Source of the DNA: Trypanosoma brucei
Lineage: Eukaryota
Length of the DNA stretch: 64,000 nucleotides
Assembly: GCA_000002445.1 (NCBI GenBank)
Contig: CM000208.1
Location: forward strand, 2,816,001 to 2,880,000
Direction: 5' to 3'
The position numbers and the translations under genes are program-made. Of this stretch, positions 4,908 to 45,366 are shown in pieces. Positions within the stretch are counted from its first letter, which is position 1. The number at the start of each line of letters is the position of its first letter. The notes under the pieces were generated by a model that was not told the origin of the DNA, did no database searches, and saw only the letters and a program-made list of their open reading frames with translations.

Positions 4908-5284
4908 AATACTTTTTGGTGCTTGCGCAAAAGTTTGGTGTGGCACGTGACTACGGTTTCTTTTGACGCACGGATAGGTCAAGGCTCATCTGTGCCTGTT
5001 TTCTGGATTTTTTTTTTTGCTTTGCACACCCTTCACTGAATTTCGACGGTGTGTTTTCCCTCATCGTGGATTACTTGGGTCAGTTGCACATACCTGTAGG
5101 CGGTGCCCTTGCGCCATTATATTCTTTTCCACCCAATCTCATAAACTTTTTACACAGTAGGAAACCTAAGAAACCCGCATATTCGGGTTGAACACCGGCT
5201 TTTGTTTGCCGTGATTCCTGACTCGTGCGGGACGTATTGTTGGGGAGCTTTAGTGGAAAATCGAGAGCATTAGAGTTTCTCTTA

Positions 5285-8200: not shown

Positions 8201-8602
8201 ACTGCCGCAGCAATGGCTGGCGCACTACCGCCTGGTCAGAGCATAGCCACCACATCAGCCCAACCACTCGGAACCGCGGCTGCAGGAGGGCCAGCAGGGA
8301 AACCCCCTGTTGAGCAAGATTTTTTATCCACGAAGCGCGTCGTTCCACCCGTTTCTCGTTGTGGAACCGCGCCCCCGTCCAAACACGTCCATTTCGAGCA
8401 GGTAGCTGAAGCTACCACCAGTGGCGGTGTGGTCTACAGGGGCGTAGAATGGACCAATAAAAACGTCGGCAATTATATCCAGCGCCGTTACTACGGGGCG
8501 GAACCAAGTCTTCGGACCCCGGCTCTTGAAAAGCGCAGGAGATTGCAAGGTCGTATGCCGGACGTTAAGTTAGAGCCGTTCAAAAGGAAAGACGAGGGAT
8601 GA
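5285..8602 (+). CDS. WD40-repeat protein with coiled-coil and a long Ala/Thr/Gly/Pro/Gln-rich tandem-repeat domain
   Basis: The track ORF begins with GTG at 5225; the first in-frame ATG is at 5285. The N-terminal ~300 aa holds clear WD40 blades (HGHSNYVRCLYAEGNAVVSGSDDCTVRVWDV, GHSGRVSSL ... SGGADGVIAVFD). A charged coiled-coil segment follows (ELSSLEGRQASLESQLEQSKGVLENIEKE). Next come about seven 78-bp (26-aa) repeats (ALPPGQSIATTSAQPLGTAAAGAMAG) and a duplicated ~230-bp block. Confidence 0.7.
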   Translation: MYTTTAKQPTVVGERAFSMSEKVLTFPSAVTSMTVTPDHVWLVMSDGGVQIRDVSTTELVHCFASASRPRRVVRIWSILAVPDPAVGLQVWMGLSNGAVEVYDAQTFGVLRQQTKHAGGVYCLAEFGGYVYSGSSDFKIGQWYAADARLVRMLHGHSNYVRCLYAEGNAVVSGSDDCTVRVWDVGSGDAQLTGRFHDRSAVSALCRVGITMWSGDDSGRVAVWRLDTCEALHILQAHSGRVSSLKKVGSRVYSGGADGVIAVFDAEEGRLLSHVNNYHGVRVSSLVVTSELRRFCIWSSSADKMIQCWHQDEYTVMIGDQERFSERFWYETGSTPYREFRDSVLKHIGNLRETLKIRTSDNPRLVDIVGLSNSASTVEGFRKREAILNKELSSLEGRQASLESQLEQSKGVLENIEKETSLVLGILRAAQAELRSLDPVLHGSLLMSAGGDANGPLANIVSTLSGQPATMTNVPNPPGNLAVPTSTAATTSAWPAIPSAAAVGSGAQYAAYQPTAIQGHPFYVGTPATYTQPASVSHPVAGVSGATVSNLQSPVPPVQVCGTTPTGVSTAQIPGGQGVAFTALQPAGTMAVGGPTGSTNAVQQVPTAATTPSGTTAAAMVGALPPGQSTATTSAQPLGTAAAGAMAGALPPGQSIATTSAQPLGTAAAGAMAGALPPGQSIATTSAQPLGTAAAGAMAGALPPGQSIATTSAQPLGTAAAGTMAGALPPGQSIATTSAQPLGTAAAGTMAGALPPGQSIATTSAQPLGTAAAGAMAGALPPGQSIATTSAQPPSTLGVGGSTGAPTFGQNFAVSLQPSTATTSVGPAGLTSSAANMAVSSQPLGASTVVDASGPLHSGQSLTGSAHPLSTQASGKLMGTASAGESVTTPFQPLGATANGSSLVFTTAGQSLTAIPQSLGVASTGQSTAQIPGGQGVAFTALQPAGTMAVGGPTGSTNAVQQVPTAATTPSGTTAAAMAGALPPGQSIATTSAQPLGTAAAGGPAGKPPVEQDFLSTKRVVPPVSRCGTAPPSKHVHFEQVAEATTSGGVVYRGVEWTNKNVGNYIQRRYYGAEPSLRTPALEKRRRLQGRMPDVKLEPFKRKDEG
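7130..7665. repeat. about seven near-identical 78-bp in-frame tandem repeats inside the WD40 gene
   Basis: The unit ggcgcactaccgcctggtcagagcatagccaccacatcagcccaaccactcggaaccgcggctgcgggagcaatggct recurs head-to-tail with only single-base variants (gca/gga, acg/gca). This creates the shadow ORFs seen in other frames and on the minus strand. Confidence 0.85.
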
Positions 8603-8860
8603 TAGAGAGTTACAAAGCCGTTAAAAGCGTTTCCGGTAAATGGCGTTAAAAAGTATATAGATATTTTTCCATAGAAATTGTCACGGCTTTTTGTGGTGTT
8701 GTTACTCAGGCTGTTTTTTCCGAGGAAACTTCGGGTATCAGGGTGTTGTGTCTTGATCCACTGACTGCCTTTTCTTTATTTACCATCTGACTAGGAACAG
8801 TAATACTGTAGCCTCTACAGTATTGAGAGCGCGGCGCTGACTAACTAGGTGGAATAGACC

Positions 8861-10461
8861 ATGAGAAGCGCGCAGTTCCCACTTGCAGCAATACCGCCCC
8901 CACCACCATCAGCAGCAGTCCCACAACCACCAATGGCAGCAGTCCCGCAACCACCAATGGCAGCAGTCCCGCAACCTCCAATGGCAACAGTCCCGCAACC
9001 ACCAATGGCAGCAGTCCCACAACCACCATCAGCAGCAGTCCCACAACCACCAATGGCAGCAGTCCCGCAACCACCAATGGCAGCAGTCCCACAACCACCA
9101 TCAGCAGCAGTCCCGCAACCACCAATGGCAGCAGTCCCGCAACCACCAATGGCAGCAGTCCCGCAACCTCCAATGGCAGCAGTCCCGCAACCTCCAATGG
9201 CAACAGTCCCGCAACCACCAAGGCAGCAGTCCCACAACCGCCAATGGCAGCAGTCCCACAACCACCATTGGCAGCAGTCCCACAACCACCAATGGCAGCA
9301 GTCCCACAACCTCCAATGGCAGCAGTCCCACAACCACCAATGGCAGCAGTCCCACAACCACCAATGGCAGCAGTCCCACAACCACCAATGGCAGCAGTCC
9401 CACAACCACCATCAGCAGCAGTCCCACAACCACCATCAGCAGCAGTCCCGCAACCACCAATGGCAGCAGTCCCGCAACCACCAATGGCAGCAGTCCCACA
9501 ACCACCATCAGCAGCAGTCCCACAACCACCAATGGCAGCAGTCCCACAACCACCAATGGCAGCAGTCCCACAACCTCCAATGGCAGCAGTCCCACAACCA
9601 CCAATGGCAGCAGTCCCACAACCTCCAATGGCAGCAGTCCCACAACCACCAATGGCAGCAGTCCCACAACCACCAATGGCAGCAGTCCCGCAACCTCCAA
9701 TGGCAGCAGTCCCGCAACCTCCAATGGCAGCAGTCCCGCAACCTCCAATGGCAGCAGTCCCACAACCACCAAAGGCAGCAGTCCCACAACCACCAATGGC
9801 AGCAGTCCCGCAACCACCAATGGCAGCAGCGCGACAGTCACCGCTGGTGGTGGCCCCGGCGTGCCCACCAACTTCCGATGGGCTAAATGCTACTGATGGC
9901 ACGGGTAGTGGATTATCAAAAAGTCTTGTAATACCATCTGCTGCCGGGGGGTTGGCAGTATCATTGTCCGAGACTCAGCAAACTCGTGGATACGGAAGAG
10001 AAACGGAGGAGATTTTTTCAGGTAACCACCCCACTAGCAACCCCAATTTACTGTCTCATTCACCTTTGCTTGCAGGTCTTCCTTCCTGGAACATCCCAAG
10101 TGCTTCAAGTTCTACTTGGGCGGGGTCGACAGTAACTCAAGTCTTTGTGCCCCAGCTGGATGCTGTCCCAGCGCGCAGCGTCATCTTACCGACTGCGGTG
10201 TGGTTTGACGACAGACTAGAGCGTGTAGTTGTTCCTCGAGTGAATGCCACTTCTTCGGTGCCAAAGGGATTACAAGAGGAAGGTTCTAGGCAGCGGTTAA
10301 AGCCGTCATTCAAACGAGTGAAGGACAAATACCTCTGGCGGCTGCCACCGTCGAAAGAGGGTATAGCAAGTGAGTTGTGGCGTGGAGTTTACTGGAAGCA
10401 TGTTGATGTGCATCGTTACGTTTCCAGGCGGTATTTTGGGGGACCGCCACCGGTTGAATAA
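8861..10461 (+). CDS. proline-rich repeat protein with about 38 copies of a 24-bp repeat encoding (M/S)AAVPQPP; frame interrupted by a 1-nt deletion near 9222
   Basis: ATG at 8861 follows a normal intergenic region and opens MRSAQFPLAAIPPPPPSAAVPQPP.... Near 9217-9231 the repeat reads ccaccaaggcagcag instead of ccaccaatggcagcag. This shifts the reading frame into that of track ORF 9244..10461, which carries the unique C-terminal domain ending ...RRYFGGPPPVE. The gene is therefore either a pseudogene or, more likely, carries an assembly or sequencing indel within the repeat array. Confidence 0.5.
8897..9830. repeat. 24-bp in-frame tandem repeat array of about 38 units
   Basis: Units are gcagcagtcccacaaccaccaatg and variants (ccgcaa/ccacaa, cct/cca, atg/tca). 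It is coding on + only. The long minus-strand and alternate-frame ORFs 8841..9902, 8845..9405, 8883..9896, 9101..9871 and 9508..9813 are artefacts of this array. Confidence 0.9.
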
Positions 10462-22081: not shown

Positions 22082-24046
22082 ATGACGCTATGGAGTGCGA
22101 CGCGTATGTTTAAGCGTACATCTACCCGTTTCAGTGCTTCCATCACTCAGTGGCTCTACATGAACTGCAGGAACCGTTGTTTCTCTCAGTGCTCGGCTTC
22201 CATGCGGAGGGGGTCACGTGCACTTGCATGGGGACGACGGATGCTCCTTTGCGCAGTCGCTGTTACCACCTCTTACGTCTTCATTGATTATGCAACCGCT
22301 CAGTCAATTACTCGTTCCATGCGGGCATTAATCACAACGGCACGCGTAGTATACATGTACAAGGGGGCAACACCCGAAACATCTGAAGAACGTTCTAACC
22401 TTCACCGTGCAGCCGCTTTGTCGCTTCTTAACCTTTGTTTGAGGAATGAAGGACTTTACATAAAGTTGGGGCAGTCACTAACGGCTATGAACCACATATT
22501 GCCATGGGAATACATCGATGTTCTCACCGTTTTGTTAGATAGAGCTCCGGTTGTGCCCCTCGATGAGGTCCGTAGAATCATCCAGGAAGAGACGGGAAGG
22601 TCATGTGAAGAGCTGTTCGTTCGTTTCGACCCCAATCCCATAGCATCCGCCTCAATTGCACAGGTGCACCGGGCTCTGATGCAGCCGTCGGATCCAATAC
22701 AGTCCCCAGTGGAAGTTTGTGTAAAGGTGCAGAAACCCCATATTCGGCGTCAAGTGTTTTGGGACCTTCAAACGTACCGTTTTGTTTTGCATGTACTGGG
22801 CGCTGCATTTAATATACCCGTTGCTTGGATGAAGGAAACTGTCGTTGAAGGCATCCGCCGTGAAGTGGACTTTTCCATAGAGGCGAGAAATGCTACTCGT
22901 ATACGACAGGATTTTGCAGACCGCAGGGATTTGTATGTGCCGGAGGTGTATGGGGATCTTGTTACCCCTCGGCTACTTGTGATGGAGTGGGTAGATGGAG
23001 TGAAATTGGTCGACGTGGTGGCTGTGCGGGAGCAATTTGATGAAGTGAAGGTTCTCCAAACCGTCTTCGGTGCCTTCGGTGACATGATTTTTAAGAGCGG
23101 CTTCGTGCATTGTGATCCTCATGGGGCAAACATTCTTGTGCGTCCACAACCATATCCAATGGAAGAGGAGGCGTCTGGAAAGTCGAAGGAGTTGAGGCAG
23201 CCAGGTGGGAGGTGTTGCAACCCGCAGGTCGTTTTGTTGGATTTCGGGCTGTGCTGCCCCGAATCAGAGCGGTTCCGCCTTGAGTACGCTCTTCTGCTCA
23301 AGGCGATGATAATGCAAGACATGGTGACGGTGAGGAAAATAGTTTATTCGTGGGGTGTCGACGACGAAAAAACATTTTCAACCCTTCAGTTGCGTAGGTC
23401 TTACGCATCCCTTCACCGAAGGAACTGTGGTGAGATGACAAGGGAGGAGGCAATGCACATGCACAATGAAGAGAGGGAGCGCATTATGAATGTGCTGAAG
23501 AGGGAGGAACAGTTACCCTGTGAATTAGTTCTAGTTGGAAGAAGTATTGATATTCTTCATGGGGTTAATCGTCTGTATGGTGGGCTTGTGAACCACATGA
23601 GGGTTTTTGGTCGCCGTGCAGTTTCAGCACTGGGTCGTCTTAATACATATGAAGATATTCAGCTCTACTTAACGCATCTCGTTGGCCTTTCCAACGGTAA
23701 TGCAGGAGAAGAGGCAATTCCGCCGTGTTGTAGTGGCAAACTCTTGTCTTTATTTGACCCTACACTCGAGCACCAACGGCGTGAAGAGGCCGCAGCCGTT
23801 CTTAAGTTTCGAAGTGGGGTAACCGCTGCTTTTCGTTACCGAGTCTGGGAGGGTATTATCTCTTTACTGATGTTGTTTCAGTTTGAGCTGGCACTCCTCT
23901 TTTTGGATGCCTACCACATGTTCATTCGGTGGTACAGCAAAGTGTTTGAAGTATCCATTTGGAACTGGATGGATGCGCGTTGGCAGAGGTTCATAAAGGC
24001 GGGGTGTTGTGGGAAGAAGGAAAACAAGTTTTATTCCATACGGTAA
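22082..24046 (+). CDS. ABC1/UbiB-family atypical kinase (ADCK / aarF-domain-containing kinase)
   Basis: ATG start, 654 aa. Family hallmarks include ASASIAQVHRA and VKVQKPHI (lysine motif). DFSIEARNATRIRQDF and VMEWVDGVKL also present. The catalytic FVHCDPHGANILV and DFGL motifs are intact. Confidence 0.85.
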   Translation: MTLWSATRMFKRTSTRFSASITQWLYMNCRNRCFSQCSASMRRGSRALAWGRRMLLCAVAVTTSYVFIDYATAQSITRSMRALITTARVVYMYKGATPETSEERSNLHRAAALSLLNLCLRNEGLYIKLGQSLTAMNHILPWEYIDVLTVLLDRAPVVPLDEVRRIIQEETGRSCEELFVRFDPNPIASASIAQVHRALMQPSDPIQSPVEVCVKVQKPHIRRQVFWDLQTYRFVLHVLGAAFNIPVAWMKETVVEGIRREVDFSIEARNATRIRQDFADRRDLYVPEVYGDLVTPRLLVMEWVDGVKLVDVVAVREQFDEVKVLQTVFGAFGDMIFKSGFVHCDPHGANILVRPQPYPMEEEASGKSKELRQPGGRCCNPQVVLLDFGLCCPESERFRLEYALLLKAMIMQDMVTVRKIVYSWGVDDEKTFSTLQLRRSYASLHRRNCGEMTREEAMHMHNEERERIMNVLKREEQLPCELVLVGRSIDILHGVNRLYGGLVNHMRVFGRRAVSALGRLNTYEDIQLYLTHLVGLSNGNAGEEAIPPCCSGKLLSLFDPTLEHQRREEAAAVLKFRSGVTAAFRYRVWEGIISLLMLFQFELALLFLDAYHMFIRWYSKVFEVSIWNWMDARWQRFIKAGCCGKKENKFYSIR

Positions 24047-26880: not shown

Positions 26881-27458
26881 AAAAGACGCGCACACATTTA
26901 TAGAGGGGGTGCGTTTCTTAATAATTTGCACTTATCTATTTTTATGTTACGCAAATCATGTGAGCAAAACTCTGGAATTGTGAAATATTGTCTTGACAGG
27001 GACGTGAACAGTCGCAGAAACAGTCAAGCGCGTTCCCTTTTACTGTTTTTATTCCTTCCGCTATTGATACGCGTGCACCCGTGTCTTTGTGTCTGCCCTA
27101 TGTTCACTCGACGCGATTATCTTTTTCTTTCGACATCGCCGCTAGAAGAGTCACACCGCTATTTCTTTTGAACAACAGCGTTCCTGCTTCCAGAGTGTTG
27201 TATTTCTTTCTGGTCGTTGATGATAACACACTAGCAGCTCAGCGTCACGATCATCAATTTGCCTCCGTCCATTTGCTTTTTCTTCTGCACCAATTTTTGG
27301 GTTTGTTCCGACTGCAATCTCGCTTTTTAAAAGAAGTCAAGAATAGCTTCGCTTTCAGCACTTTAATCATTGGTAAGCGTATTTTAACGACAAATAAACG
27401 AAGGGGAAAGGAGAGGGTGAAAACAACATCGAGGCGAATTCGTGTAGTGTTCTACGAA

Positions 27459-28748
27459 ATGCAACAGTCAATTCGGCTTGCTGATCGCCTCGCGGATGTG
27501 CCACCGTATTCCGTGTGGACAGAAATGACACCCCTCGCCAACAAGCACGGGGCTGTTAACCTCGGTCAAGGTTTCCCCAATTTTCCTCCACCCGATTTCC
27601 TCTTGAAGGAAGCCCATCGTGTGTTTGATGAAAGTGTTGTGACACCAACGAACCAGCAGTATGCGCGAACGCAGGGCAACCTGGAGCTTGTGTCCGAACT
27701 GAAGCGTATATACGCAAAACATCTTGGGTGGCCCGATATAGGTGACGAGAACATCGTCATTACCAACGGCACAACTCAGGGACTGAACATGGTATTTCAG
27801 GCTATTGTCAATCCAGGCGATGAAGTGATTACATTTGAGCCCTTCTACGACGCTTACCAATGTGACATCCAACTGGCGGGTGGTGTGGTAAGGTTTGTGC
27901 AGATGATTCCTGGTTCTACAGGCCTTGCGGACTCGTGGACCTTCAGTGAGGAGCAGTTACGGTCACTGATAAACCCGCGGACAAAAGCTATACTTGTCAA
28001 CACACCACAGAACGTTCCCGGGAAGGCGTGGACGCGGGAAGAAATGAATATTGTCGCATCCCTTGCTTTGGAGCATAACCTTATCGTTGTGTCCGACGAG
28101 GTGTATATGCATCTTGTGTACGCGACCCCGCATCCCATTGAGGGACAGAAACACTCGCATCTCTCAATAGCAGCGTTGCCGGACATGCGTGACCGCTGCG
28201 TCACACTGTGCAGTTCTGGTAAGACGTTTTCGGCTACGGGCTGGAAGATTGGCTGGGCGGTGGGCCCCACGAAGCTTATTCAGGCTCTGAGCTTGTTGGA
28301 ATTGTACCAAACATTCAACGTGGCCACACCCTTGCAGATTGCAACGGCCCGCGGCCTTCGCATTGCGGAGGAAGTCGGTTACTACGAGAATCTTCTCTCG
28401 CAATACGAAAAGCGTCGGAAGCTCCTTTGTGACATGCTTGCAAAGAATAACTTACCCCCAACCATACCCTCAGGTGGGTTCTTCGTTCTAGCGGACATCT
28501 CACTTGTGGACCCCAAGCATTATCTTGACCCCAATGAAAGGTCGGTTGGTCGAGACTGGCAGTTCTGTCGGTGGCTCACACGCACATTGAAGGTGTGTGC
28601 GATCCCTGTGACTGCTTTCTGCCAGAAGGAGAATCGCCCGGTATATGATAAGTTCGTTCGGTTTGCTTACTGCAAGAAGGAGGAAGACATTATAGAGGCT
28701 GGCATACGCCTTGAAAGACTGAGCGAGTACCTGCTTCCTGCCCATTAG
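27459..28748 (+). CDS. class-I PLP-dependent aminotransferase, kynurenine aminotransferase / cysteine-S-conjugate beta-lyase family
   Basis: Track ORF 27081 starts with GTG, and its N-terminal ~126 codons are hydrophobic junk; the first ATG is at 27459 (MQQSIRLADRLADVPPYSVWTEM). LGQGFPNFPPPDFL matches KAT/CCBL (human LGQGFPDFPPPDF). The PLP-lysine region SSGKTFSATGWKIGWAVGP matches GSAGKTFSATGWKVGW. NTPQNVPGK also present. Confidence 0.85.
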   Translation: MQQSIRLADRLADVPPYSVWTEMTPLANKHGAVNLGQGFPNFPPPDFLLKEAHRVFDESVVTPTNQQYARTQGNLELVSELKRIYAKHLGWPDIGDENIVITNGTTQGLNMVFQAIVNPGDEVITFEPFYDAYQCDIQLAGGVVRFVQMIPGSTGLADSWTFSEEQLRSLINPRTKAILVNTPQNVPGKAWTREEMNIVASLALEHNLIVVSDEVYMHLVYATPHPIEGQKHSHLSIAALPDMRDRCVTLCSSGKTFSATGWKIGWAVGPTKLIQALSLLELYQTFNVATPLQIATARGLRIAEEVGYYENLLSQYEKRRKLLCDMLAKNNLPPTIPSGGFFVLADISLVDPKHYLDPNERSVGRDWQFCRWLTRTLKVCAIPVTAFCQKENRPVYDKFVRFAYCKKEEDIIEAGIRLERLSEYLLPAH

Positions 28749-30893: not shown

Positions 30894-31212
30894 GCGCACC
30901 GGTCGAAGCATACAGTTTTTTTCACCCCCTTTCGCGGGCATATCTATTGTTATCATCACCTCACTTCCTCCGTTCTTTGTGGTTGCCGCTGGTAACTGGT
31001 ATATTATGTGTGGGTTTCGTATAGTTTCTGTTATGGAGATCTAAATTAGTGAGGCAGTATGGTATGGGATCGCGCAGCCCTTGTGTGGATGCTCTCTTGC
31101 TCTTGCATGATTCCCCAATTTTCCTGTGTATCGTTACCACTCTCTCGTGAGACGCATTTTTTATTTTTCGTTTGTTGCGGTACAAAAGATATTAAGGCAA
31201 AAAAGAGTGTAT

Positions 31213-31860
31213 ATGCGTCCGTTAACGGAGGAAGAGACAAAAAAGCTGTTTGACAAGCTTGCACAATACATTGGACCGAACACTGCCCACCTGCTTCAGC
31301 AGAAGGGAACCAAATCGGCTGGTGTTGCTCCTTTCAACAATGGCAAGACCACCGGCAATAATGGGAGCAACGATGATGATGATGGTGATGACGGCGAAGA
31401 ACAAAACTCGCAGCAGACTTATGTCTTCCGTTTGCACAAGAACCGTATTTGGTACATGCCACTGAGGCTGGCCAAACTCGCAAGTTGCGTGGCGAAGTCC
31501 AACTTAATGGGAATTGGTGTTCTCTTCGCTAAGGTCACGCACCACGGTCATGTGCGACTGCAGGTAACGGCGTTAGAATATATTGCACAGTACTCTCTCT
31601 TTAAAGTGTGGTTGAAACCAAGTCAAGAGCAGAAGTTTCTGTATGGTGGCCACGTCACGCGTGCCGGTTTGGGTCGTATTACAGAAGCAACACCGCGACA
31701 TCAAAAAGTGGCTGTCTTTTCTATGGGCGATGTACCCCTCGGTTTTGGTGTGGCAGCGCTTGGGACGTTGGAGTGCAGGCGGTGTGAGATGAACAGCACC
31801 GTATTATTTCATGAAGCTGATGTTGGCGAGTACTTGCGTAACGAGGCACGCTTGACGTAG
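31213..31860 (+). CDS. NIP7: 60S ribosomal subunit biogenesis protein NIP7 homologue
   Basis: Track start 31126 is GTG; the first ATG is at 31213. MRPLTEEETKKLFDKLAQYIGPN is the conserved NIP7 N-terminus. A PUA-like domain occupies the C-terminus. An inserted Asn/Gly/Asp-rich loop (GNNGSNDDDDGDDGEEQNSQQ) is present. Confidence 0.7.
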   Translation: MRPLTEEETKKLFDKLAQYIGPNTAHLLQQKGTKSAGVAPFNNGKTTGNNGSNDDDDGDDGEEQNSQQTYVFRLHKNRIWYMPLRLAKLASCVAKSNLMGIGVLFAKVTHHGHVRLQVTALEYIAQYSLFKVWLKPSQEQKFLYGGHVTRAGLGRITEATPRHQKVAVFSMGDVPLGFGVAALGTLECRRCEMNSTVLFHEADVGEYLRNEARLT

Positions 31861-37613: not shown

Positions 37614-40400
37614 TTCCCCGTTAATTTTCTTTTTCTTTTTTTGTTATTCGAAATAGTTATATGATAATGTGATATGCTTAAAATAAAAGAAAAAAAGTAG
37701 ATCCACAAATTTAAAATTTAATTTAACTATGATTGTCGTTTTTATCTTGTGTTGATAAAAACGGGGTCGGATGGTGTTTGCGTTTTTGTATATGCCGAAT
37801 AAAACTGCAGAATATATTTATATAAAATATTTATAGTAACAAATTAGCGACTTTTCATCTCACTTCCTCCGATTCTGTTCGCTTTTTTTCGCTGTCTCGT
37901 TATTTATTTACTCATTTACTTTTTTTTTCCTCTCTCCCCTCCCTCCCCTACCCCCTTTCGTATAAAAATATAAATATATTTATAAATGTGTTAGTCTCTG
38001 CGTTTCCTTTTATTACTTTCTCTGTTTTATTTTTCATCTTTCGATGTTTTGGCGTGCAGCTGTAGGTTTTGTGTTTTTTTTATTATCATTAAACTTAATC
38101 ACTATTCTTATTTTTGTATTTTCTTTTAATATATATATATATATATATATATGTTTTAGTTACTAGTGGCTTGCTTTTCTACGTTTCTTTTTGTTTTTTT
38201 TATTTATGAGTCGGGGCGAAGGAAGCGGTGCCTTTCCTTCATTTTACCTCTGAGTTATTAATTTTTTCCCCCCATTTTCCCCCTGCTCTCCGCCTGCCAT
38301 CAGGATCTGGTTTATTATTTTAATTTTCAGCACCATCATCACCGCTATTCCCTTCTTTTTTCTTTTTTTCCTTTTTTCTTTTGACATTTTGTCATATTTT
38401 TGTTGTTTTTGTTGTTTTTGTTGTTAAAAATATGATTTGGCTTTCATGTGTGTCGGCTTCGGTTTCGTAATGAATGCATTACAACATAACCTTCTTATTG
38501 CTTTTCATGCTGGCGTTTGTTTCATTTTGTTTCTTTTTTTTTATTTTTCCTGCGTCGACCTCAATATCCAACCGTCATGTTGCACCTGAGTGGTGGATGA
38601 GGAACAGGACGGTAACAAACAGATAAAAAATAAAAATTAAAATCAACTTCAAAACTTTGTTGAGTTCCCGTTGATGTTTATAAAAATGAATGATGATGAT
38701 GATAATAATAATAATGATAACAAATGCTGTCGCTCTTGTTGTTAATATAACCATTTTTGTTATTGTTAAATTGTTAAGAGGTCAACGATGAGGCAGTGGA
38801 TGATTTTTATTCATATGAACAAATTAAGTTGTTAAAAGTGGCGCCAATGGAAAGTGATTTGAAGGTGTGAAGTAAAGAAAAAGAGAAACAACAGCGGTAA
38901 TAAATACCATTTTTTTCTTTTAAAAAAAGAAAAAAAAAGGTACATACGACATCTGAAAAGGGGGAAGGCATAATCATGATATCAGTAATAATATTAATAT
39001 TACCAACAAGGCAAGAGGCAGGGAAACAAAGGGAGAGAAGGGAGAGGAGAAACATACAAAAGGAAAAAAAAGATAATAATAATAATAACAATAACAATCA
39101 CAATAATAATAATTATTATGTGATGTCTCCTCTTCCTCCTCCGCATTCTCCTTAAATGACACAACCCCTTTATAAAAGGGGGAAAAGAAAGAAAAGAAGA
39201 ATGGTAATTGTGTTTATGTATGTGTGTTTATGAGTTGGAGGGAGGGAGGGGAAAGCGGTATATCAAATGAATAAAATGACAAACCGAAACCGAGCCAAAA
39301 CGAAAGAGGAACGTAAAAAAAAAAGGAGGAGAAATGACAGTAAAGATATGGAGTGTAATAAAACTGAATAGAATGAAACAGAGAGCAAGGAAAAAGAAAA
39401 GGAAAGGAAAAAAGACAGATTGGTAAGGACGACATTTGTTTTGAGGAGCGGCAGTGGGAAATAGCGTGAAAAAGAGAAAAAGAAAAAAAGAAAAGGGAGC
39501 GAGGCGAGTGTTGAAGTGAAATACTGTGGGGTATTTTTGGACACCACGAATGAAACAAAAAGATATGTACACTCAAACATGAAAAAAAAAAGACAAATAC
39601 ATTAAATATGAGGAATACAGAATAGAAGAGATGAATAGAAGATGCGTACCCGGGTGCTCATGACTGGTACGACATTTACATGTTTTGTTTTGTCTTTTTT
39701 AAAATAAATAAATAAATATATATATATTCATGTGGTTGGAATGTATATGGAGTGATGTGGAGGTGTAGTGGTAGTTATGCAGATGGCGAATGCTCACTCG
39801 CAGCAACTGTAATTTGTCTTATGTTTTTACTTTGTTCCTCTTTCATCCTTTTAATTTTTTGGCGAATTCAAGAAGGTGAGGGCGAAGGGAAACAAACAGC
39901 AGGAAATGGGGTGAATTTTGTTGAAAGAAAAAAAAAGTGAATAAAAAGAAGGTAGTGATGCTTACCACTATATATCAGGTTCTTTGCGTCTGATTCAATA
40001 GAAGAAACGGAGAGAAAATTGTGTACAATGTATAATTGCTTTGCATTTTTTATACGCACGCGTGATAACTTGTAGTGCCTCCCCCCTATTCTCTTTTTTT
40101 CCTTTACAAACACAACTCTCTGAACTTAAAAGGGGAAGAGTAGAGACGGAAGCGAGTGCGGAGGCGGATGGTTTTAACATCTAAATACCGTTACTCATAT
40201 TACTTGTGTGAAAGACTTCGCTTTTTTTTTTTTTGTAAAAAATATTTCTCCACCTGAGTTGTAAGTCCATGATGGAACAACGCGTGAGGTGAAAGGAACA
40301 GAGAGGAAGAAAGATAGAGTGGCGGAAACGGACGGTCTTATGATTGTTTCTTTTCCGACGAGTCTTTCACATTAATTCAATCAAATATGCATAACTGAGT

Positions 40401-40506
40401 TCTCTCTCTTTTTTTTTCTTTTTTTCTTTACTTTTCTTAATTCTCCTTCTCCTCTTTCTTCCTTTACAAATTACTATTTTTCTTTGTTTTTGCATGCATT
40501 TCACAG
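40401..40506 (+). promoter_or_regulatory. polypyrimidine tract plus AG dinucleotide: candidate trans-splice acceptor region for the MAP kinase gene
   Basis: tctctctctttttttttctttttttctttacttttcttaattctccttctcctctttcttcctttacaaattactatttttctttgtttttgcatgcatttcacag ends in AG about 30 nt upstream of the ATG at 40535. In trypanosomatids such tracts direct SL trans-splicing and polyadenylation of the upstream gene (established knowledge). Confidence 0.5.
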
Positions 40507-40534
40507 GGATAGGATTACGCTTTAATTATTAATC

Positions 40535-41776
40535 ATGAACCGTAGTTCGAGGAACCTTGCAGAGATGCAGGATGAGATCAACCAGTTGGACGACCGTTAC
40601 AAACTTGAAAAGATAATTGGTGCGGGATCCTATGGTGTCGTCATCCGCGCGAGGGATACCACAACAAACGACCTAGTGGCCATTAAACGCGTCAATAAGG
40701 AAATATTCGAGGAAATAATCCTTGCAAAACGTATTCTTCGCGAAATCAAGCTGTTGGCACACTTTCACCACGATAATATCATTGGACTCCGTAACCTCAT
40801 CACCCCGGCCGACCGCGACAACTATGATTACTTTTATATTGTCATGGATGTAATGGAGACCGACCTGAAGCAAGTGCTCCGAACTGGCCAAAGTCTCACG
40901 GAAGGTCACATACAATATTTCATTTATCAAATCTTACATGCCCTAAACTTCATCCATTCTTCAGGTGTTATTCATCGAGACATCACCCCGGCCAACATTT
41001 TAGTCAATAAAAATTGTGATTTGAAGATATGCGACTTCGGACTTTCCAAAGAGGAGAGTGATCAAGGGGAGCACATGACAGATTATGTTACCATGCGTTG
41101 GTACCGTGCACCGGAGCTGGTGATGGAAGATAAGAGGTATTCCGCACAAATTGATGTGTGGGGAGTTGGAAGTATTCTTGGTGAGTTGCTGGGCGCCCGA
41201 CCCCTGTTTCAGGGAAAAGACCGTGTGAACCAACTGGACAAAATCATTGATGTTATCGGAACTCCATCTGAAGAGGATATAAATTCCATCGGGTCCACTG
41301 CGGCGCAGAAGTATTTAAAAAAGAAGTCATTTCGTCCTGCACCCGATTGGGCCTCCGTATATCCCAGAGCGAGTCCAGAGGCGCTGGACTTATTGCGGCG
41401 GATGTTGGTGTTCCATCCAGACAAGCGCATAACTGTCGCTGAAGCATTAAAACATCCCTTCCTTAGGGATCTGTACGAGGAATCCGATGTACAGGTTAGT
41501 ATCCAGCACTTTAACTTTGATGAAACACAACATAAAACAATTCAGGAGGTAAAGTGGGCGGTGTATGATGAGAGTGTGGCATTTCACAAAAACCACCCCC
41601 GGACAGCACCTAGGCCACAACAACAACAACATTCTGCGCAACAACCCGCCGCTGCTGCATCTCTTCCAACTGTTGATATCGCTGGAGAGTGGCGGTCAGC
41701 GCAACAAACAATTGAGCGGGGCGAGGAGGAATGTGGTGCGGAGCAGTTCGACAAATATGTGGGTTCCGTTGAGTGA
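40535..41776 (+). CDS. mitogen-activated protein kinase (TDY activation-loop type)
   Basis: ATG start, 413 aa. Gly-loop GAGSYGVV and VAIKRV lysine present. HRDITPANILV catalytic loop present. DFGLS present. Activation loop TDYVTMRWYRAPE (T-D-Y) present. WGVGSIL ... DQLDKIIDVIGTP (MAPK insert region) present. C-terminal Gln-rich tail. By gene order this may be the chr10 MAPK of T. brucei; symbol not asserted. Confidence 0.9.
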   Translation: MNRSSRNLAEMQDEINQLDDRYKLEKIIGAGSYGVVIRARDTTTNDLVAIKRVNKEIFEEIILAKRILREIKLLAHFHHDNIIGLRNLITPADRDNYDYFYIVMDVMETDLKQVLRTGQSLTEGHIQYFIYQILHALNFIHSSGVIHRDITPANILVNKNCDLKICDFGLSKEESDQGEHMTDYVTMRWYRAPELVMEDKRYSAQIDVWGVGSILGELLGARPLFQGKDRVNQLDKIIDVIGTPSEEDINSIGSTAAQKYLKKKSFRPAPDWASVYPRASPEALDLLRRMLVFHPDKRITVAEALKHPFLRDLYEESDVQVSIQHFNFDETQHKTIQEVKWAVYDESVAFHKNHPRTAPRPQQQQHSAQQPAAAASLPTVDIAGEWRSAQQTIERGEEECGAEQFDKYVGSVE

Positions 41777-42656
41777 TCAAATTCAGTTGTTAAAAGGGCG
41801 TCTGCGAAAAAAAGAAAATAATAATAATAATAGGAAAATGAAATAAACAAAACAAAACAAAAATAACGAACAAGAAAAAGGAAAGGAAGGAGGAGGAGGA
41901 GGAGGAAAGCTGCAAGAGTGGGTATAAGCACGTGCATGTATGCGTTTGTACGTTTTTTTAAAATTTCGTTTTGTCTCAGGGAAGAGCAGCTTTAATGGGA
42001 TTTCCTCGGCCTGCTTAGCTGATGCTGCGGCGGCCGTATTACGTGAAGGGATGCTAGAAATATGATATAATACGAAGGCCGAGAGGTATATATTGCGTGC
42101 GATGGAATAAAGTGAAGAGAAAGTTGTTGGAGGTGACGGTGCAAAAATTCAAAGCTATCAAATAAAGACTCATCGGGTAAATGGGAAATAAAAACTTAAA
42201 CGAAGAGAAACAAAAGAAAAAAGGGTGGAGGGGAACGTAAATAAGAAACAGATAAGCAGCAACTGACAAAAATATGAAGGTAGGGGTGGTGCGAAAAGAA
42301 AGGAAAAATTTGCCCGTGTGTGTGTGTATGTGTTTAAAGGAACGGGGGTCAAAAGTAAAATAAATCGAATGAATAATTGGGGGAAAAAAGGAAAGGAGAG
42401 GTTAAATGAAACAAAAGGAAGGAAATATGAGCATATGGCTACAAGTATATGATTCTGTCGGTGGAATGAGATGGTTAAGAGGAGTAGAGGAAATAGGGAT
42501 TCTACGGAAAAGTGAGTTGATGGAACGTATGGTAAAGGACTGCGGTGGGTTTCGTATGGTTTTACTTATGAAAAGAAAGTCATTTTACCCTCCTCCTGCT
42601 GTCCCCGACTTGTGTTTGTTGGTTTTGTTTTGTTTTGTTTTGCTCCGATATTTCAT

Positions 42657-42690
42657 TCCCTTCCCTTCCCTTCCCTTCCCTTCCCCTCCT
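42657..42690. repeat. (CCCTT)6 pentanucleotide repeat, preceded by a (GTTTT)n run
   Basis: cccttcccttcccttcccttcccttcccc. ttgttttgttttgttttgttttg lies at ~42620-42645. Confidence 0.8.
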
Positions 42691-44195
42691 AATCTATACG
42701 AATTTAGAGGGTGAGCGTTCGGTGTTTGAGGACGTCATGCCACTCACGGATGAATTCTCATGCTCATTTCTTGTGTGTGCGTGGGAAAAGGGCAGGGTAA
42801 AGGAGGAATTACTTATTTATTGTATTATTTTTTTTTAAAAAAGGAGAGGAATAGGAAATGGGAAGGTGTGCAGTGAATGGCTCAAGGTGATGAGATAGAA
42901 TATGATGGTTACCGTGGGTGCTTTTTTTTTTTGTTGATTCGTTGGTTGGTTGTTTGATTTATATGTTTCTATACTTATATGTGTGTGCTTGTAGCACCTT
43001 CATATTCTGACGTTACATACGCATATTTGATATTTCTTCTTATATTTACTTACATATGTATAGTCCTAAAAATTCTTTAAGCAGCGCCAGCAACAAAAAG
43101 AATGCTTGACTTCCATCACACATTTTTTCTTTCTTTTTTTCTTTTTTTTTTTCTGTTTATGCTTCCATCATTTTTACCATTTTCCCCGTTCCTCAATTGT
43201 CGCCGACATTATTATGGTTCCTTTTCATTCTTTTCCCATGTTTGTTTACATTCCCCTTCTCTGGGTTAAGGAATGCTTGGCGCGTGTATTTCAAATAAAC
43301 AGCATGAAGCTACTTGCCTTCCGTGACTGCCTAGCGTTCTTCCGTCGCTTCGTTTTGTTTGTGTTTTTTTTTCTTTTTTCCTTCTAGGTATTTAATTTCT
43401 TTTTTCCTTCTTATCTTCCATTCGGTATTTTACATGTTGGTGTTATTATGACGAGGCTTGCTTAGGTATGTTGCTCCCGTTGCGTTGTGGTGCTCCTTTT
43501 TTTTTTTTTACTTTTTGGTCACTTTTAATTCCTACGTGGCTCTCTGTGCGGACGTGGTGTACAACCTTTCCTACACGTACAAATATACAAATATGCGCAC
43601 ACTTACATACGCGGGTACGTATATACGTACATCTACATATGTATTGGTTTTGTGTTCAAATTAACATGTGTCGTTGCTACCATCGCTCTTTTTTTTCTTT
43701 GTTATTAATATTAATATTGATATTAATATTATTTATATTGCTGGGAATAGCATTACTATTTTTCTTTCTTTCGTTAACTATCTCCCCCCTTTCCGAATTC
43801 GTTTCTTCTTTTTTAAAAAAATTCTTTACCACCCAACCCAATTTCTTTATTTTTCCACCGTCGCACAGTTGGAATGAATGAATATCGGAGACAATTGAGG
43901 GTAAAGAGAAACTCAAAAGGAAAAGAGAAAGAGGGATAAAGGAAATGACGGGAACAAAAACAAAAAATAAAATGAAAACTAGAATTACATTTCTCCTCAT
44001 CTTCCTTCCCTCCCTCCCATATATACACACATATGCACACACTTCTGATATCGAAACGGGGAAAATGAAGGGGAAAAATAACAGTCACATGATTGGATGG
44101 GTGTGTAGTCGACGGTGGGTGCGGGACCCCTCCGGAAACTGCGAATTGTGGAAAGAGAATCGGGTGCCAAACGTCGGCAATATTTTGCAGCACTT

Positions 44196-44218
44196 CCTGA
44201 CTGACTGACTGACTGACT
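44196..44218. repeat. (TGAC)5 tetranucleotide repeat
   Basis: ctgactgactgactgactg, intergenic. Confidence 0.8.
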
Positions 44219-44496
44219 GTGCGGAAGTGCGCGTGTATGTTTATATATTTAATCCGTCTGTGTATACATATATTCATCAATCTGCACGAGTGTGTGGATT
44301 ACAATTGTGTGTTGAGCCTACGGCATGGTCGGTTGCGGCTTGCGAAGCTGTTTGTCTCGCTTTTACCCAACTACTGTTGTCATTCTTGTTTTTACCATTA
44401 TGTTATGCTGTTTGCTTAATGCTTTTCATTCCCGTTATTTTGGTGGAAGGGCTTCCGGGGAGTCGACTGTGAATTCATTTCCAAACTAGAACTAGG

Positions 44497-45366
44497 ATGG
44501 TACTCCCACGCAAGTTGGTCGGTCAGTGTTGTTTACTGCTGCAGAAGAAGCAAACAGCGGCAAGCTATATGGCAAATGCAGGGAAAGTAGGAAGCGAGGA
44601 GAAGTGGGCGCAGGCCGCTATGGAGTATTTGCACGAAAAGCGTCACTGCAATGATAGCCGTAAACGGCAGCACGATGTGGATAATGAGCGACGCATGGCG
44701 TTTGCCTTTGATCGTTACTGCTCTGTAAATGAGAAAATTTTCACAGAGCGACTTTCCCGCTTATCGGACCGCATGACTGAGGCGCTAGAGACAATAAAGC
44801 AACTGGGCATGGACCATGCACTTGAAGAGGCATTGATGTTGTCGTCGGAGCAGCCCCCTTTGAACTTTCGCCGTCCAACCCTCACACCACCAGTTGCTGG
44901 ATATGAGCCTGGATTTGGACTTGACGTCCCTCAACTCCGCTCGAGGCAAGCGGAGTATCCACCGGTAGGGAGACCAACCGATGCCATGGAGTTTGGGGAA
45001 GAAAAGGATCCGTCGTTTCCCCTCGTTGAGTCGTTCCGTGTAGAGGACCTCACTACGCAGTGCTTAAATGAATTAGAGGAAAGGCATGGTGAGATACGGG
45101 AGGCAGCACCAACAACAGGTGTGGAAGGTGAGGCATGGGAAGCATATGTGGCGTTGCAAAAGAAAGCGTTAGCGCGGCAACAGCTTATATTTGAACTTTG
45201 CAACGATGGGGAATTGCGGGAACGGTATGATTCGGACGTTGCGTTCCGGCAGCGGGTGTGGGAGGAGAGAGGCATGCTCCCGCTTGAGATTGAGCGGGAA
45301 CGGCTGCATGAGGAGCCACGGCACTATGCCCAGGAGCCGGCCTATCACCCCTTTAGGAAGATGTAG
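44497..45366 (+). CDS. hypothetical charged protein
   Basis: ATG start, 289 aa. Glu/Arg-rich predicted helical sequence. An alternative start is MANAGKVG at ~44569. No family assigned. Confidence 0.45.
   Translation: MVLPRKLVGQCCLLLQKKQTAASYMANAGKVGSEEKWAQAAMEYLHEKRHCNDSRKRQHDVDNERRMAFAFDRYCSVNEKIFTERLSRLSDRMTEALETIKQLGMDHALEEALMLSSEQPPLNFRRPTLTPPVAGYEPGFGLDVPQLRSRQAEYPPVGRPTDAMEFGEEKDPSFPLVESFRVEDLTTQCLNELEERHGEIREAAPTTGVEGEAWEAYVALQKKALARQQLIFELCNDGELRERYDSDVAFRQRVWEERGMLPLEIERERLHEEPRHYAQEPAYHPFRKM

What the first reader, a model, noticed from the sequence alone, without database searches (positions are those of the whole stretch)
40535..41776. MAP kinase with Thr replacing the catalytic-loop lysine (HRDITPAN instead of HRDLKPxN)
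All other catalytic signatures are canonical: GxGxxG, VAIK, DFG, the TDY activation lip and APE. The catalytic loop, however, reads G-V-I-H-R-D-I-T-P-A-N. The Lys of HRDLKxxN normally contacts the ATP gamma-phosphate in Ser/Thr kinases, so a Thr there is atypical. It may indicate altered catalytic properties or substrate/ATP handling in this trypanosome MAPK.
Basis: seen in the sequence. Interest (0 to 1): 0.5.

Follow-up and report, generated by a model that had tools for sequence, protein, structure and literature searches.

The report
Ancient MAP kinase lacking catalytic-loop lysine
This is the Trypanosoma brucei MAP kinase MAPK11, whose active site carries a threonine where nearly all Ser/Thr kinases have an ATP-contacting lysine; the change is real, invariant across kinetoplastids, diplonemids and euglenids, and paired with loss of the lysine's usual partner threonine, but whether and how the enzyme still transfers phosphate is untested.

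Summary
ORF 40535-41776 (+) encodes a 413-aa MAP kinase with GAGSYG, VAIK, HRDITPAN, DFG, TDY and APE. The Thr codon is ACC at 40985-40987. The gene is T. brucei MAPK11 (Tb927.10.12040), the orthologue of Leishmania MPK11 (PDB 4QNY).

The Thr is not an error. 119 of the 120 closest database proteins, and all 128 aligned family members, have HRD[ILVM]TP[ASG]N. They come from trypanosomatids, Bodo, Perkinsela, diplonemids and euglenids. Codons vary synonymously (ACC/ACG).

- **Coupled change.** The P+1-loop Thr is Thr in 129 of 130 Lys-bearing MAPKs but Met in 124 of 128 Thr-bearing ones.
- **A second Lys-less family.** MPK10 (PDB 3UIB) has His at the same site, plus DFN, and is a proven active kinase.
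- **Intact machinery.** Every other catalytic and phospho-lip-binding residue is invariant.

The best reading is a remodelled but still functional MAPK active site, activated through TDY phosphorylation. It probably acts in the STE11-MKK4-MAPK11 module that mediates the melarsoprol-induced mitotic block. Activity itself is untested, so a pseudokinase-like switch remains a live rival. The gene is known; the catalytic-loop feature was not found in the searchable literature.

The parts
40535..41776 (+). Complete coding sequence of T. brucei MAPK11 (Tb927.10.12040): 413 aa plus TGA stop
   Evidence: ORF list and translation. Pfam Pkinase 7e-66 over aa 22-310. 100% identical to the T. b. equiperdum protein; 67-71% identical to Leishmania, Leptomonas and Novymonas proteins, two of which (Leptomonas) the source names MPK11. 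Gene id from PMC6283605.
40619..40636 (+). Glycine-rich loop GAGSYG (aa 29-34). Ser32 (40628-40630) sits at the loop tip, where Lys-bearing MAPKs mostly have Ala.
   Evidence: Ser32 is present in 126 of 128 Thr-class and 3 of 3 His-class sequences, against 11 of 130 Lys-class sequences.
40676..40687 (+). VAIK motif with the beta3 lysine Lys51 (40685-40687)
   Evidence: Lys51 is present in 128 of 128 family members.
40742..40744 (+). Helix alphaC glutamate Glu70
   Evidence: Present in 128 of 128 family members.
40973..40996 (+). Catalytic loop HRDITPAN (aa 147-154). Asp149 and Asn154 are canonical.
   Evidence: His, Arg, Asp, Pro and Asn are each present in 128 of 128 family members.
40985..40987 (+). 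Codon ACC = Thr151, at the position of the catalytic-loop Lys (PKA Lys168 / ERK2 Lys149)
   Evidence: Thr in 128 of 128 family members, Lys in 130 of 130 other MAPKs. Same codon in T. b. equiperdum; ACG in L. major.
41033..41041 (+). DFG motif (aa 167-169)
   Evidence: Asp167 in 128 of 128 family members.
41078..41086 (+). TDY dual-phosphorylation lip (aa 182-184)
   Evidence: Thr182 and Tyr184 in 128 of 128 family members.
41090..41095 (+). P+1 loop Thr186-Met187. Met187 replaces the conserved P+1 Thr (PKA Thr201 / ERK2 Thr188).
   Evidence: Met in 124 of 128 Thr-class sequences; Thr in 129 of 130 Lys-class sequences. Euglenid orthologues have Val-Met, so the defining change is loss of the Thr, not a shift.
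41108..41116 (+). APE motif (aa 192-194)
41669..41752 (+). Conserved motif in the otherwise disordered C-terminal tail (aa 379-406, TVDIAGEWRSAQQTIERGEEECGAEQFD) with near-invariant Arg387 (41693-41695). Possible regulatory or docking element; its link to the active site is unproven.
   Evidence: Arg387 in 104 of 109 orthologues. AF2 pLDDT below 50 in this region. The motif was not found in the three MPK10-type tails.

Best explanation
The ORF is T. brucei MAPK11, a member of a MAP-kinase orthologue family (MPK11) whose named members are all Euglenozoa. In this family the active site was rewired before kinetoplastids, diplonemids and euglenids diverged.

**The rewiring.** The canonical pair of catalytic-loop Lys and P+1-loop Thr is replaced by Thr151 plus Met187. 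In canonical kinases that Lys contacts the ATP gamma-phosphate and the Thr hydrogen-bonds the catalytic Asp and the Lys. A Ser is also gained at the tip of the glycine-rich loop.

**What is kept.** Everything else needed to bind Mg-ATP, deprotonate a substrate hydroxyl and respond to dual TDY phosphorylation is strictly conserved.

**Most likely mechanism.**
- Shown: it is a MAPK-fold protein with an intact nucleotide and metal site and an intact phospho-lip read-out.
- Shown by others: it is cytosolic, and its knock-down, like that of MKK4, lowers melarsoprol sensitivity and relieves the melarsoprol-induced mitotic block.
- Inferred: it is activated by a MAPK kinase on Thr182/Tyr184 and still transfers phosphate, but without the lysine's positive charge.
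- Inferred: the Thr151 hydroxyl takes over orienting Asp149, the job of the lost P+1 Thr. Met187 fills the space of the Lys side chain. The gamma-phosphate is held by the two metals, the Gly-loop backbone and Ser32, and possibly water or a substrate or partner residue.
- Inferred consequence: slower or more substrate- and metal-dependent catalysis than ERK-type MAPKs.
For: **Identity**
- 100% identical to the T. b. equiperdum protein; Leptomonas orthologues are named MPK11.
- Best PDB match is 4QNY, the L. donovani LDBPK_331470 MAPK, at 603 bits and also HRDITPAN. The AF2 model has a target-normalised TM-score of 0.94 to it.
- Tb927.10.12040 is called MAPK11 in PMC6283605.

**Conservation**
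- Thr at the Lys site in 119 of the 120 best hits and 128 of 128 aligned family members.
- Named sources include Bodo saltans, Perkinsela, Trypanoplasma, Papus, the diplonemids Sulcionema and Namystynia, and the euglenids Euglena, Eutreptiella, Rhabdomonas, Urceolus and Petalomonas.
- The Thr codon is ACC or ACG; L. major ACG is one transversion from AAG (Lys), yet Lys never appears.

**Coupled change**
- Lys pairs with P+1 Thr in 129 of 130 sequences. Thr pairs with Met in 124 of 128, with 2 Val and 2 Thr. His pairs with Tyr, Ser or His in 3 of 3.

**Intact machinery in the Thr class**
- 128 of 128: Gly29, Gly31, Gly34, Lys51, Glu70, His147, Arg148, Asp149, Asn154, Asp167, Thr182, Tyr184, Arg188, Arg191, Asp207.
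- 127 of 128: Glu194.

**Precedent**
- L. major MPK10 has HRDLHPGN, DFN and THYVTHRWYRAPE (PDB 3UIB/3PG1).
- When purified from parasites, MPK10 robustly phosphorylates MBP in a Lys51-, Thr190- and Tyr192-dependent way (PMC4169501).

**Literature on the lysine**
- It orients and neutralises the gamma-phosphate in almost all Ser/Thr kinases, and other kinases supply that charge from elsewhere (PMC1989141).
- The catalytic-loop consensus is H/YRDXKXXN (PMC3415842).

**Biology**
- MAPK11, MKK4 and STE11 are top melarsoprol RIT-seq hits.
- MAPK11 RNAi raises melarsoprol EC50 1.7-fold and reduces the conjoined-nuclei phenotype. The protein is cytosolic (PMC6283605).
Against: - No kinase-activity measurement for any MPK11 or MAPK11 was found.
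- Thr is uncharged and too short to reach the gamma-phosphate.
- No clade-specific basic residue that could plausibly substitute was found by sequence. The gained basic positions 38, 230, 236, 263, 264 and 275 map, by homology and my own structural knowledge, to beta2 and the alphaG/MAPK-insert region, not to the phosphate site.
- MPK10's His can be protonated, so it is an imperfect precedent. Recombinant MPK10 is only weakly active.
- The Lys168-Thr201-Asp166 hydrogen-bond network is taken from my own knowledge of PKA and ERK2 structures. It was not retrieved from a paper here.
Confidence: 0.6

Rival explanations
1. MAPK11 is a catalytically very weak or dead signalling switch, in effect a pseudokinase. 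It binds nucleotide and changes conformation on TDY phosphorylation, and it acts by scaffolding or allostery within the STE11-MKK4 module rather than by phosphorylating substrates.
For: - The gamma-phosphate-contacting Lys, listed among the catalytically important residues of the loop (PMC3415842; PMC1989141), is missing, with no identified replacement.
- No activity has been reported.
- The knock-down phenotype does not distinguish catalytic from non-catalytic roles.
Against: - All remaining catalytic residues are invariant in 128 of 128 sequences spanning three euglenozoan classes: beta3 Lys, alphaC Glu, HRD Asp, Asn154 and DFG Asp. From my own knowledge, non-catalytic kinases usually drift at these sites.
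- It does not meet the usual sequence definition of a pseudokinase (loss of the beta3 Lys, HRD Asp or DFG Asp).
- The related Lys-less MPK10 is active.
Confidence: 0.25
2. The two altered positions are the ones that classically separate Ser/Thr kinases from Tyr kinases. The change may therefore reflect altered chemistry: Tyr or dual specificity in an organism without classical tyrosine kinases, or an ATPase-type role like Bud32/PRPK and RIO kinases, which carry Thr or Ser at this site.
For: - The loop VIHRDITPANILV fits the PROSITE tyrosine-kinase active-site pattern and not the Ser/Thr pattern, with both patterns written from my memory.
- UniRef names the T. congolense and T. vivax orthologues 'putative tyrosine protein kinase'.
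- Human PRPK has HGDLTTSN (PMC7864929).
- Marginal Pfam hits to the Kdo and ABC1 atypical-kinase families cover this loop.
Against: - There is no Arg at +2 or +4 from the catalytic Asp, as in HRDLRAAN/HRDLAARN (role of that Arg in PMC1989141).
- There is no Pro-x-[KR]-W P+1 motif; RWYRAPE is retained.
- The overall best matches are Ser/Thr MAPKs: Pkinase 223 bits against PK_Tyr_Ser-Thr 116 bits.
- The full ePK C-lobe and activation loop are present, unlike Bud32 and RIO (PMC7864929).
Confidence: 0.07
3. The Thr codon is a sequencing or assembly error, or a strain-specific polymorphism of a normal HRDLKPxN MAPK.
For: None beyond the rarity of the residue.
Against: - The same ACC codon appears in an independent T. 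b. equiperdum assembly.
- A T. b. gambiense study lists its 'Mapk11 homolog' entries with no non-synonymous SNPs.
- Thr is present in all 128 aligned family members, with synonymous codon variation.
- The crystallised L. donovani protein has HRDITPAN.
Confidence: 0.01

Closest known systems
Leishmania MPK11 (LmjF.33.1380 / LDBPK_331470; PDB 4QNY)
   Same: Orthologue, 71% identical over 98% of the length. Identical HRDITPAN, DFG and TDYVTMRWYRAPE. Best fold match to the AF2 model.
   Different: The tail differs: T. brucei has EWRS where most orthologues have EGRS. The 4QNY chain sequence is 354 residues and matches the query only to residue 352, so it does not cover the tail. No paper describing 4QNY's active site was found; it is used only as a modelling template.
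Leishmania / kinetoplastid MPK10 (PDB 3PG1, 3UIB)
   Same: - It is a euglenozoan MAPK that also lacks the catalytic-loop Lys and the P+1 Thr.
- It shares the derived residues Ser32, Arg52, Glu173, Thr186, Val196 and Met197 with MPK11.
- Its nearest non-MPK10 sequences are MPK11-type, with the diagnostic columns masked.
   Different: It has His rather than Thr at the Lys site, DFN instead of DFG, and a THY lip. It has a documented autoinhibitory C-terminal domain and measured activity. The sister relationship is only weakly supported: the T+H grouping appears in 77 of 200 NJ bootstraps.
Canonical ERK/p38/plant-type MAPKs
   Same: Fold, TxY lip, HRD Arg, phospho-lip-binding arginines and RWYRAPE; 40-45% identity.
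   Different: They have HRDLKPxN with Lys (130 of 130) and V[AV]T with the P+1 Thr (129 of 130). The Gly loop is mostly GxGAYG.
Tyrosine kinases (HRDLAARN / HRDLRAAN)
   Same: They also lack the Lys at Asp+2 and the Thr in the P+1 loop. The same two positions are co-substituted (own knowledge; Arg role in PMC1989141).
   Different: Tyrosine kinases supply an Arg at +2 or +4 that occupies the Lys position. MAPK11 has Pro-Ala there and no Arg.
Bud32/PRPK and RIO atypical kinases
   Same: Thr or Ser at the equivalent catalytic-loop position: PRPK has HGDLTTSN (PMC7864929). Rio2 takes its gamma-phosphate-contacting basic residue from the small lobe (PMC1989141).
   Different: PRPK lacks the activation loop and the helices after alphaF, and Rio2's large lobe is quite distinct from conventional kinases. 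MAPK11 is a complete CMGC kinase.

Membership tests
MAP kinase (CMGC group ePK) | Eukaryotic protein-kinase catalytic domain | tested here: met
   Pfam PF00069, E = 7.4e-66, aa 22-310, full profile length.
MAP kinase (CMGC group ePK) | TxY dual-phosphorylation motif in the activation loop | tested here: met
   TDY at aa 182-184. Thr and Tyr are invariant in 128 of 128 family members.
MAP kinase (CMGC group ePK) | Closest sequences and folds are MAPKs | tested here: met
   PDB sequence hits are 4QNY, fungal Mps1, plant MPK4/6 and ERK1/2/5. Foldseek top hits are 4QNY, p38 and ERK2.
MAP kinase (CMGC group ePK) | Catalytic loop HRD[LIM]KPxN with Lys at Asp+2 | tested here: not met
   HRDITPAN, with Thr151. 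Lys is present in 130 of 130 other MAPKs in the comparison set.
MAP kinase (CMGC group ePK) | P+1 loop V-[AV]-T-R-W-Y-R-A-P-E with conserved Thr | tested here: not met
   VTMRWYRAPE, with Met187.
MAP kinase (CMGC group ePK) | Arginines that read the phosphorylated lip (HRD Arg, alphaC Arg, P+1 Arg) | tested here: met
   Arg148, Arg66, Arg188 and Arg191 in 128 of 128; Arg69 in 123 of 128. The mapping to ERK2 residues is from my own knowledge.
MAP kinase (CMGC group ePK) | Activation by a MAPK kinase and proline-directed Ser/Thr phosphorylation | not testable with these tools
   The only support is genetic co-occurrence of MAPK11, MKK4 and STE11 in the melarsoprol screen (PMC6283605).
MPK11 orthologue family (Euglenozoa) | Full-length high-identity match to proteins named MPK11 | tested here: met
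   67-71% identity over about 96-98% of the length to Leishmania, Leptomonas and Novymonas proteins. UniProt Q389D8 is listed as the T. brucei MPK11 (PMC3100106).
MPK11 orthologue family (Euglenozoa) | HRD[ILVM]TP[ASG]N plus TDYV[TV]M signature | tested here: met
Pseudokinase (sequence definition) | Loss of the beta3 Lys, the HRD Asp or the DFG Asp | tested here: not met
   Lys51, Asp149 and Asp167 are present and invariant in the family.
Protein tyrosine kinase | Arg at +2 or +4 from the catalytic Asp (HRDLRAAN / HRDLAARN) | tested here: not met
   The positions after Asp149 are Ile-Thr-Pro-Ala-Asn; there is no Arg.
Bud32/RIO-type atypical kinase | Truncated C-lobe without an activation loop or the helices that follow alphaF | tested here: not met
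   The full Pkinase profile is matched. The AF2 model has a complete C-lobe and a MAPK-like fold.

The most novel reading that the evidence does not exclude
MPK11, together with MPK10, would define an ancient class of MAP kinases, found so far only in Euglenozoa, that carry out regulated phosphoryl transfer with no basic residue in the catalytic loop. They would use a rewired Asp-Thr/His-Met triad. The missing charge might be supplied in trans or in cis, for example by a substrate or partner residue or by the conserved C-terminal G-R-[ST] tail motif. Alternatively the chemistry itself might have shifted: acceptor specificity, metal dependence or ATPase switching. That would be a new catalytic solution within the best-studied kinase family, in a protein linked to arsenical drug action.
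Probability: 0.15. Interest if true: 0.75.

Novelty: new variant of a known kind. Interest (0 to 1): 0.5.

Why it matters
**For kinase enzymology.** The catalytic-loop lysine is one of the most conserved residues of Ser/Thr kinases. A MAPK family has kept every other catalytic residue but replaced this one, and its structural partner, across the whole depth of Euglenozoa. That makes it a natural experiment on how dispensable the lysine is and what can compensate for it.

**For parasitology.**
- MAPK11 knock-down reduces melarsoprol sensitivity and relieves the drug-induced mitotic block. Knowing whether it signals by catalysis or by scaffolding therefore bears on arsenical mode of action.
- The non-human active-site geometry (Thr/Met in place of Lys/Thr) could be exploited for selective inhibitors of MPK11/MPK10-type kinases.
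- A crystal structure of the Leishmania orthologue (4QNY) already exists for that purpose.

**For annotation.** The same substitution seems to mislead automatic annotation into labelling orthologues 'tyrosine protein kinase'.

Tried and rejected
**Sequencing error or polymorphism.** Rejected.

**Compensating basic residue.**
- I compared 128 Thr-class with 130 Lys-class MAPKs column by column.
- Gained basic positions are 38, 230, 236, 263, 264 and 275. By homology these lie in beta2 and the alphaG/MAPK-insert region, not near the gamma-phosphate, so none was accepted.
- This could not be checked in 3D because neither the AF2 model nor PDB coordinates are exposed to scripts.

**C-terminal tail as the compensator.** The conserved G-R-[ST] motif is absent from MPK10-type and several divergent Thr-class proteins, and AF2 does not dock it. 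It is kept only as a passing observation.

**Phylogeny.**
- NJ with 200 bootstraps and the three diagnostic columns masked did not resolve the question. The Thr class formed a clan in 26-36 of 200 replicates and Thr+His in 36-77 of 200.
- A single versus a double origin of Lys loss is therefore left open.
- Two long-branch sequences, a springtail JNK fusion and a Brachypodium CDK-like protein, intruded and were removed.

**Literature.**
- No paper in the searchable library prints HRDITPAN, HRDLHPGN or related strings.
- The Horjales 2012 MPK10 structure paper is not held.
- The PKA Thr201-Lys168-Asp166 contact could not be retrieved from the papers I could open. It is therefore cited as my own knowledge.
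- The Brumlik 2011 reading of a 'shifted' P+1 Thr is not supported as the defining change. Euglenid orthologues have Val-Met with no Thr at 186.
Full report
**1. Observation**

The ORF finder returns a single long ORF at exactly 40535-41776 on the + strand: 413 aa, ATG start, TGA stop. Translating the sub-coordinates confirms these motifs:
- GAGSYG, nt 40619-40636
- VAIK, nt 40676-40687
- HRDITPAN, nt 40973-40996
- DFG, nt 41033-41041
- TDY, nt 41078-41086
- APE, nt 41108-41116

The codon at the lysine position is ACC, at 40985-40987. The protein matches the Pfam protein-kinase domain over its full profile length (E = 7e-66). Its closest solved relatives are all MAP kinases.

**2. Identity**

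The protein is 100% identical to a T. brucei equiperdum protein and 80% identical to the T. congolense orthologue. It is 67-71% identical to Leishmania, Leptomonas and Novymonas proteins, and the two Leptomonas proteins are named MPK11 by the source.

The best PDB hit is 4QNY, 'MapK from Leishmania donovani, LDBPK_331470', at 603 bits; it also reads HRDITPAN. An AlphaFold2 model has mean pLDDT 82, with the activation loop (aa 169-187) and the C-terminal 50 residues at low confidence. It superposes best on 4QNY, then on p38 and ERK2.

The literature identifies the gene as MAPK11, Tb927.10.12040 (PMC6283605), UniProt Q389D8 (PMC3100106).

**3. Is the Thr real and selected?**

Yes.
- An independent T. 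b. equiperdum assembly has the same ACC codon.
- A T. b. gambiense patient-strain study lists two 'Mapk11 homolog' genes, both with no non-synonymous SNPs (PMC4721075). I did not verify which is the orthologue.
- Of the 120 best database proteins, 119 carry Thr, as HRD[ILV]TP[AS]N. The one exception is a plant MAPK.
- In a domain alignment of 262 sequences, all 128 family members have Thr and all 130 other MAPKs have Lys.
- Named sources cover trypanosomatids, Bodo saltans, Perkinsela, Trypanoplasma, Papus, the diplonemids Sulcionema and Namystynia, and the euglenids Euglena, Eutreptiella, Rhabdomonas, Urceolus and Petalomonas. The substitution therefore predates the divergence of the three euglenozoan classes.
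- Codons vary synonymously: ACC in T. brucei, T. cruzi and Bodo; ACG in L. major, with neighbouring codons also differing. ACG is one transversion from AAG (Lys), yet Lys is never seen. This is purifying selection for Thr.

**4. What else changed**

*P+1 loop.* It reads TDYVTMRWYRAPE against the canonical TEYV[AV]TRWYRAPE. The conserved P+1 Thr is Thr in 129 of 130 Lys-bearing MAPKs. It is Met in 124 of 128 Thr-bearing ones, with 2 Val and 2 Thr.

From established structural knowledge of PKA (Thr201, Lys168, Asp166) and ERK2 (Thr188, Lys149, Asp147), this Thr hydrogen-bonds the catalytic Asp and the catalytic-loop Lys. That is my own knowledge and was not retrieved here. On that basis the two substituted residues are a contact pair, and the covariation supports a coupled replacement.

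[quoted passage not shown] Euglenid orthologues have Val-Met at positions 186-187. The ancestral event is therefore loss of the Thr rather than a shift.

*Gly-rich loop.* Ser32 at the loop tip, the PKA Ser53 position, is present in 126 of 128 Thr-class and 3 of 3 His-class sequences. It is present in only 11 of 130 Lys-class MAPKs.

**5. A second Lys-less family**

The representative search also returned MAPKs with His at the Lys site. They match L. major MPK10 (PDB 3UIB/3PG1), which reads HRDLHPGN, DFN and THYVTHRWYRAPE.

MPK10-type sequences share several derived residues with MPK11: Ser32, Arg52, Glu173, Thr186, Val196 and Met197. Their nearest non-MPK10 neighbours are MPK11-type, with the three diagnostic columns masked. 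Neighbour-joining support for a joint clade is weak, at 77 of 200 bootstraps. One or two origins of Lys loss therefore remains open.

MPK10 purified from parasites robustly phosphorylates MBP, and this requires Lys51, Thr190 and Tyr192 (PMC4169501). A MAPK without the catalytic-loop Lys can therefore be an active kinase. The caveat is that His can carry a positive charge and Thr cannot.

**6. What is retained**

In the Thr-class the following are invariant in 128 of 128 sequences:
- Gly29, Gly31, Gly34 and Val36
- Lys51, Glu70, His147, Arg148, Asp149, Pro152, Asn154 and Asp167
- Thr182, Tyr184, Arg188, Arg191 and Asp207

Glu194 is present in 127 of 128.

The protein therefore does not meet the sequence definition of a pseudokinase. 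Conservation of the metal and nucleotide ligands and the catalytic base at this evolutionary depth argues that ATP chemistry is still under selection. The lip-reading arginines and the TDY motif argue for canonical activation by a MAPK kinase.

**7. Mechanism**

*Literature.* In almost all Ser/Thr kinases the Lys two residues after the catalytic Asp orients and neutralises the gamma-phosphate. Tyrosine kinases, ChaK and Rio2 supply the same charge from other positions (PMC1989141). The loop consensus is H/YRDXKXXN (PMC3415842).

*Search for a compensator.* I looked for a clade-specific basic residue that might compensate. Those found are at positions 38, 230, 236, 263, 264 and 275. By homology they map to beta2 and the alphaG/MAPK-insert docking surface, not to the phosphate site.

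*Preferred model (inference).*
- The Thr151 hydroxyl orients Asp149, replacing the lost P+1 Thr.
- Met187 fills the Lys channel.
- The gamma-phosphate is stabilised by the two metals, the Gly-loop backbone and Ser32.
- Catalysis is probably slower or more context-dependent than in ERK-type MAPKs.

*Rivals.*
- A pseudokinase-like switch, confidence about 0.25.
- Altered acceptor or ATPase chemistry, about 0.07. The loop matches the PROSITE Tyr-kinase pattern as I recall it. Two orthologues are auto-named 'tyrosine protein kinase'. PRPK has HGDLTTSN (PMC7864929). Against this, there is no Arg at +2 or +4 and the C-lobe is a full MAPK one.

**8. Biology**

MAPK11, MKK4 (Tb927.8.5950) and STE11 (Tb927.10.1910) were three of the top seven hits in a melarsoprol RNAi screen. 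MAPK11 knock-down raised melarsoprol EC50 1.7-fold and reduced the drug-induced conjoined-nuclei phenotype. The protein is cytosolic (PMC6283605).

In Leishmania, MPK11 is reported in the promastigote secretome/exosome proteome (PMC5464532). Its phosphorylation rises in amastigotes after HSP90 inhibition (PMC10715028). No enzymatic study was found.

**9. Novelty and verdict**

The gene, its orthologues and one crystal structure are public, so this is not a new gene. The Lys-to-Thr substitution, its Euglenozoa-wide invariance, its coupling to the P+1 Thr-to-Met change and the parallel with MPK10's His were not found in any searchable paper. Alignments printed as figures and subscription papers could not be searched.

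I rate it a new variant of a known kind with moderate interest (0.5). It is a real, ancient and testable deviation in a core catalytic residue of a drug-response-linked kinase, but its functional consequence is still unmeasured.

Noticed in passing
window 41669-41752 (aa 379-406 of MAPK11): The otherwise variable, low-confidence C-terminal tail carries a conserved motif: [ST]V..[ET]G[ED]G-R-[STA]-[AG]QQT[IL]EK, then acidic residues, then [FYW][DE]. Arg387 is present in 104 of 109 orthologues. T. brucei has Trp386 where 95 of 109 have Gly. The 4QNY chain matches the query only to residue 352, so it does not cover the motif. The motif was not found in the three MPK10-type tails. It may be a regulatory, docking or pseudosubstrate element.
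   Followed up: partly
window 8841-9902 and 7128-7661: There are two in-frame tandem coding repeats. One is 24 bp x 38 copies (8912-9829, 93% match); it yields stop-free ORFs in several frames on both strands. The other is 78 bp x 6.8 copies (7128-7661, 97% match), inside the 1125-aa ORF 5225-8602.
   Followed up: no
window 22082-24046 (+): A second, unrelated kinase-like gene lies in the window: an ABC1/UbiB atypical kinase (Pfam PF03109, E = 4.5e-65). Nearby are a class I/II aminotransferase (27081-28748) and a NIP7-like PUA protein (31126-31860). Apart from two that lie inside the 24-bp tandem-repeat array, every ORF of at least 200 aa in the window is on the + strand, consistent with one trypanosomatid polycistronic unit.
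   Followed up: no
orthologues P0001 (T. congolense) and P0006 (T. vivax): UniRef names these MAPK11 orthologues 'putative tyrosine protein kinase'. This is probably an annotation artefact: Thr at the Lys site makes the loop fit the PROSITE Tyr-kinase active-site pattern rather than the Ser/Thr one. The patterns were written from memory and tested by regular expression.
   Followed up: partly
P0222 (Notosolenus urceolatus) and P0126 (Petalomonas cantuscygni), found: Two early-branching euglenids may carry intermediate states. Notosolenus has a Lys-bearing MAPK (HRDLKPGN, TLYVAT) with MPK10-like ELLMQW, Arg52 and Glu173. Petalomonas has the catalytic-loop Thr but keeps the P+1 Thr (TDYVTTRWYRAPE). 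They could order the two substitutions if placed on a robust tree.
   Followed up: partly
L004 (T. b. equiperdum CM010681.1) versus window 38000-45000: The equiperdum gene model is truncated to 310 aa, although the locus is 97.6% identical to the window. The alignment has 42 gap openings over 6.8 kb, which suggests indel errors in that long-read assembly rather than a real truncation.
   Followed up: no
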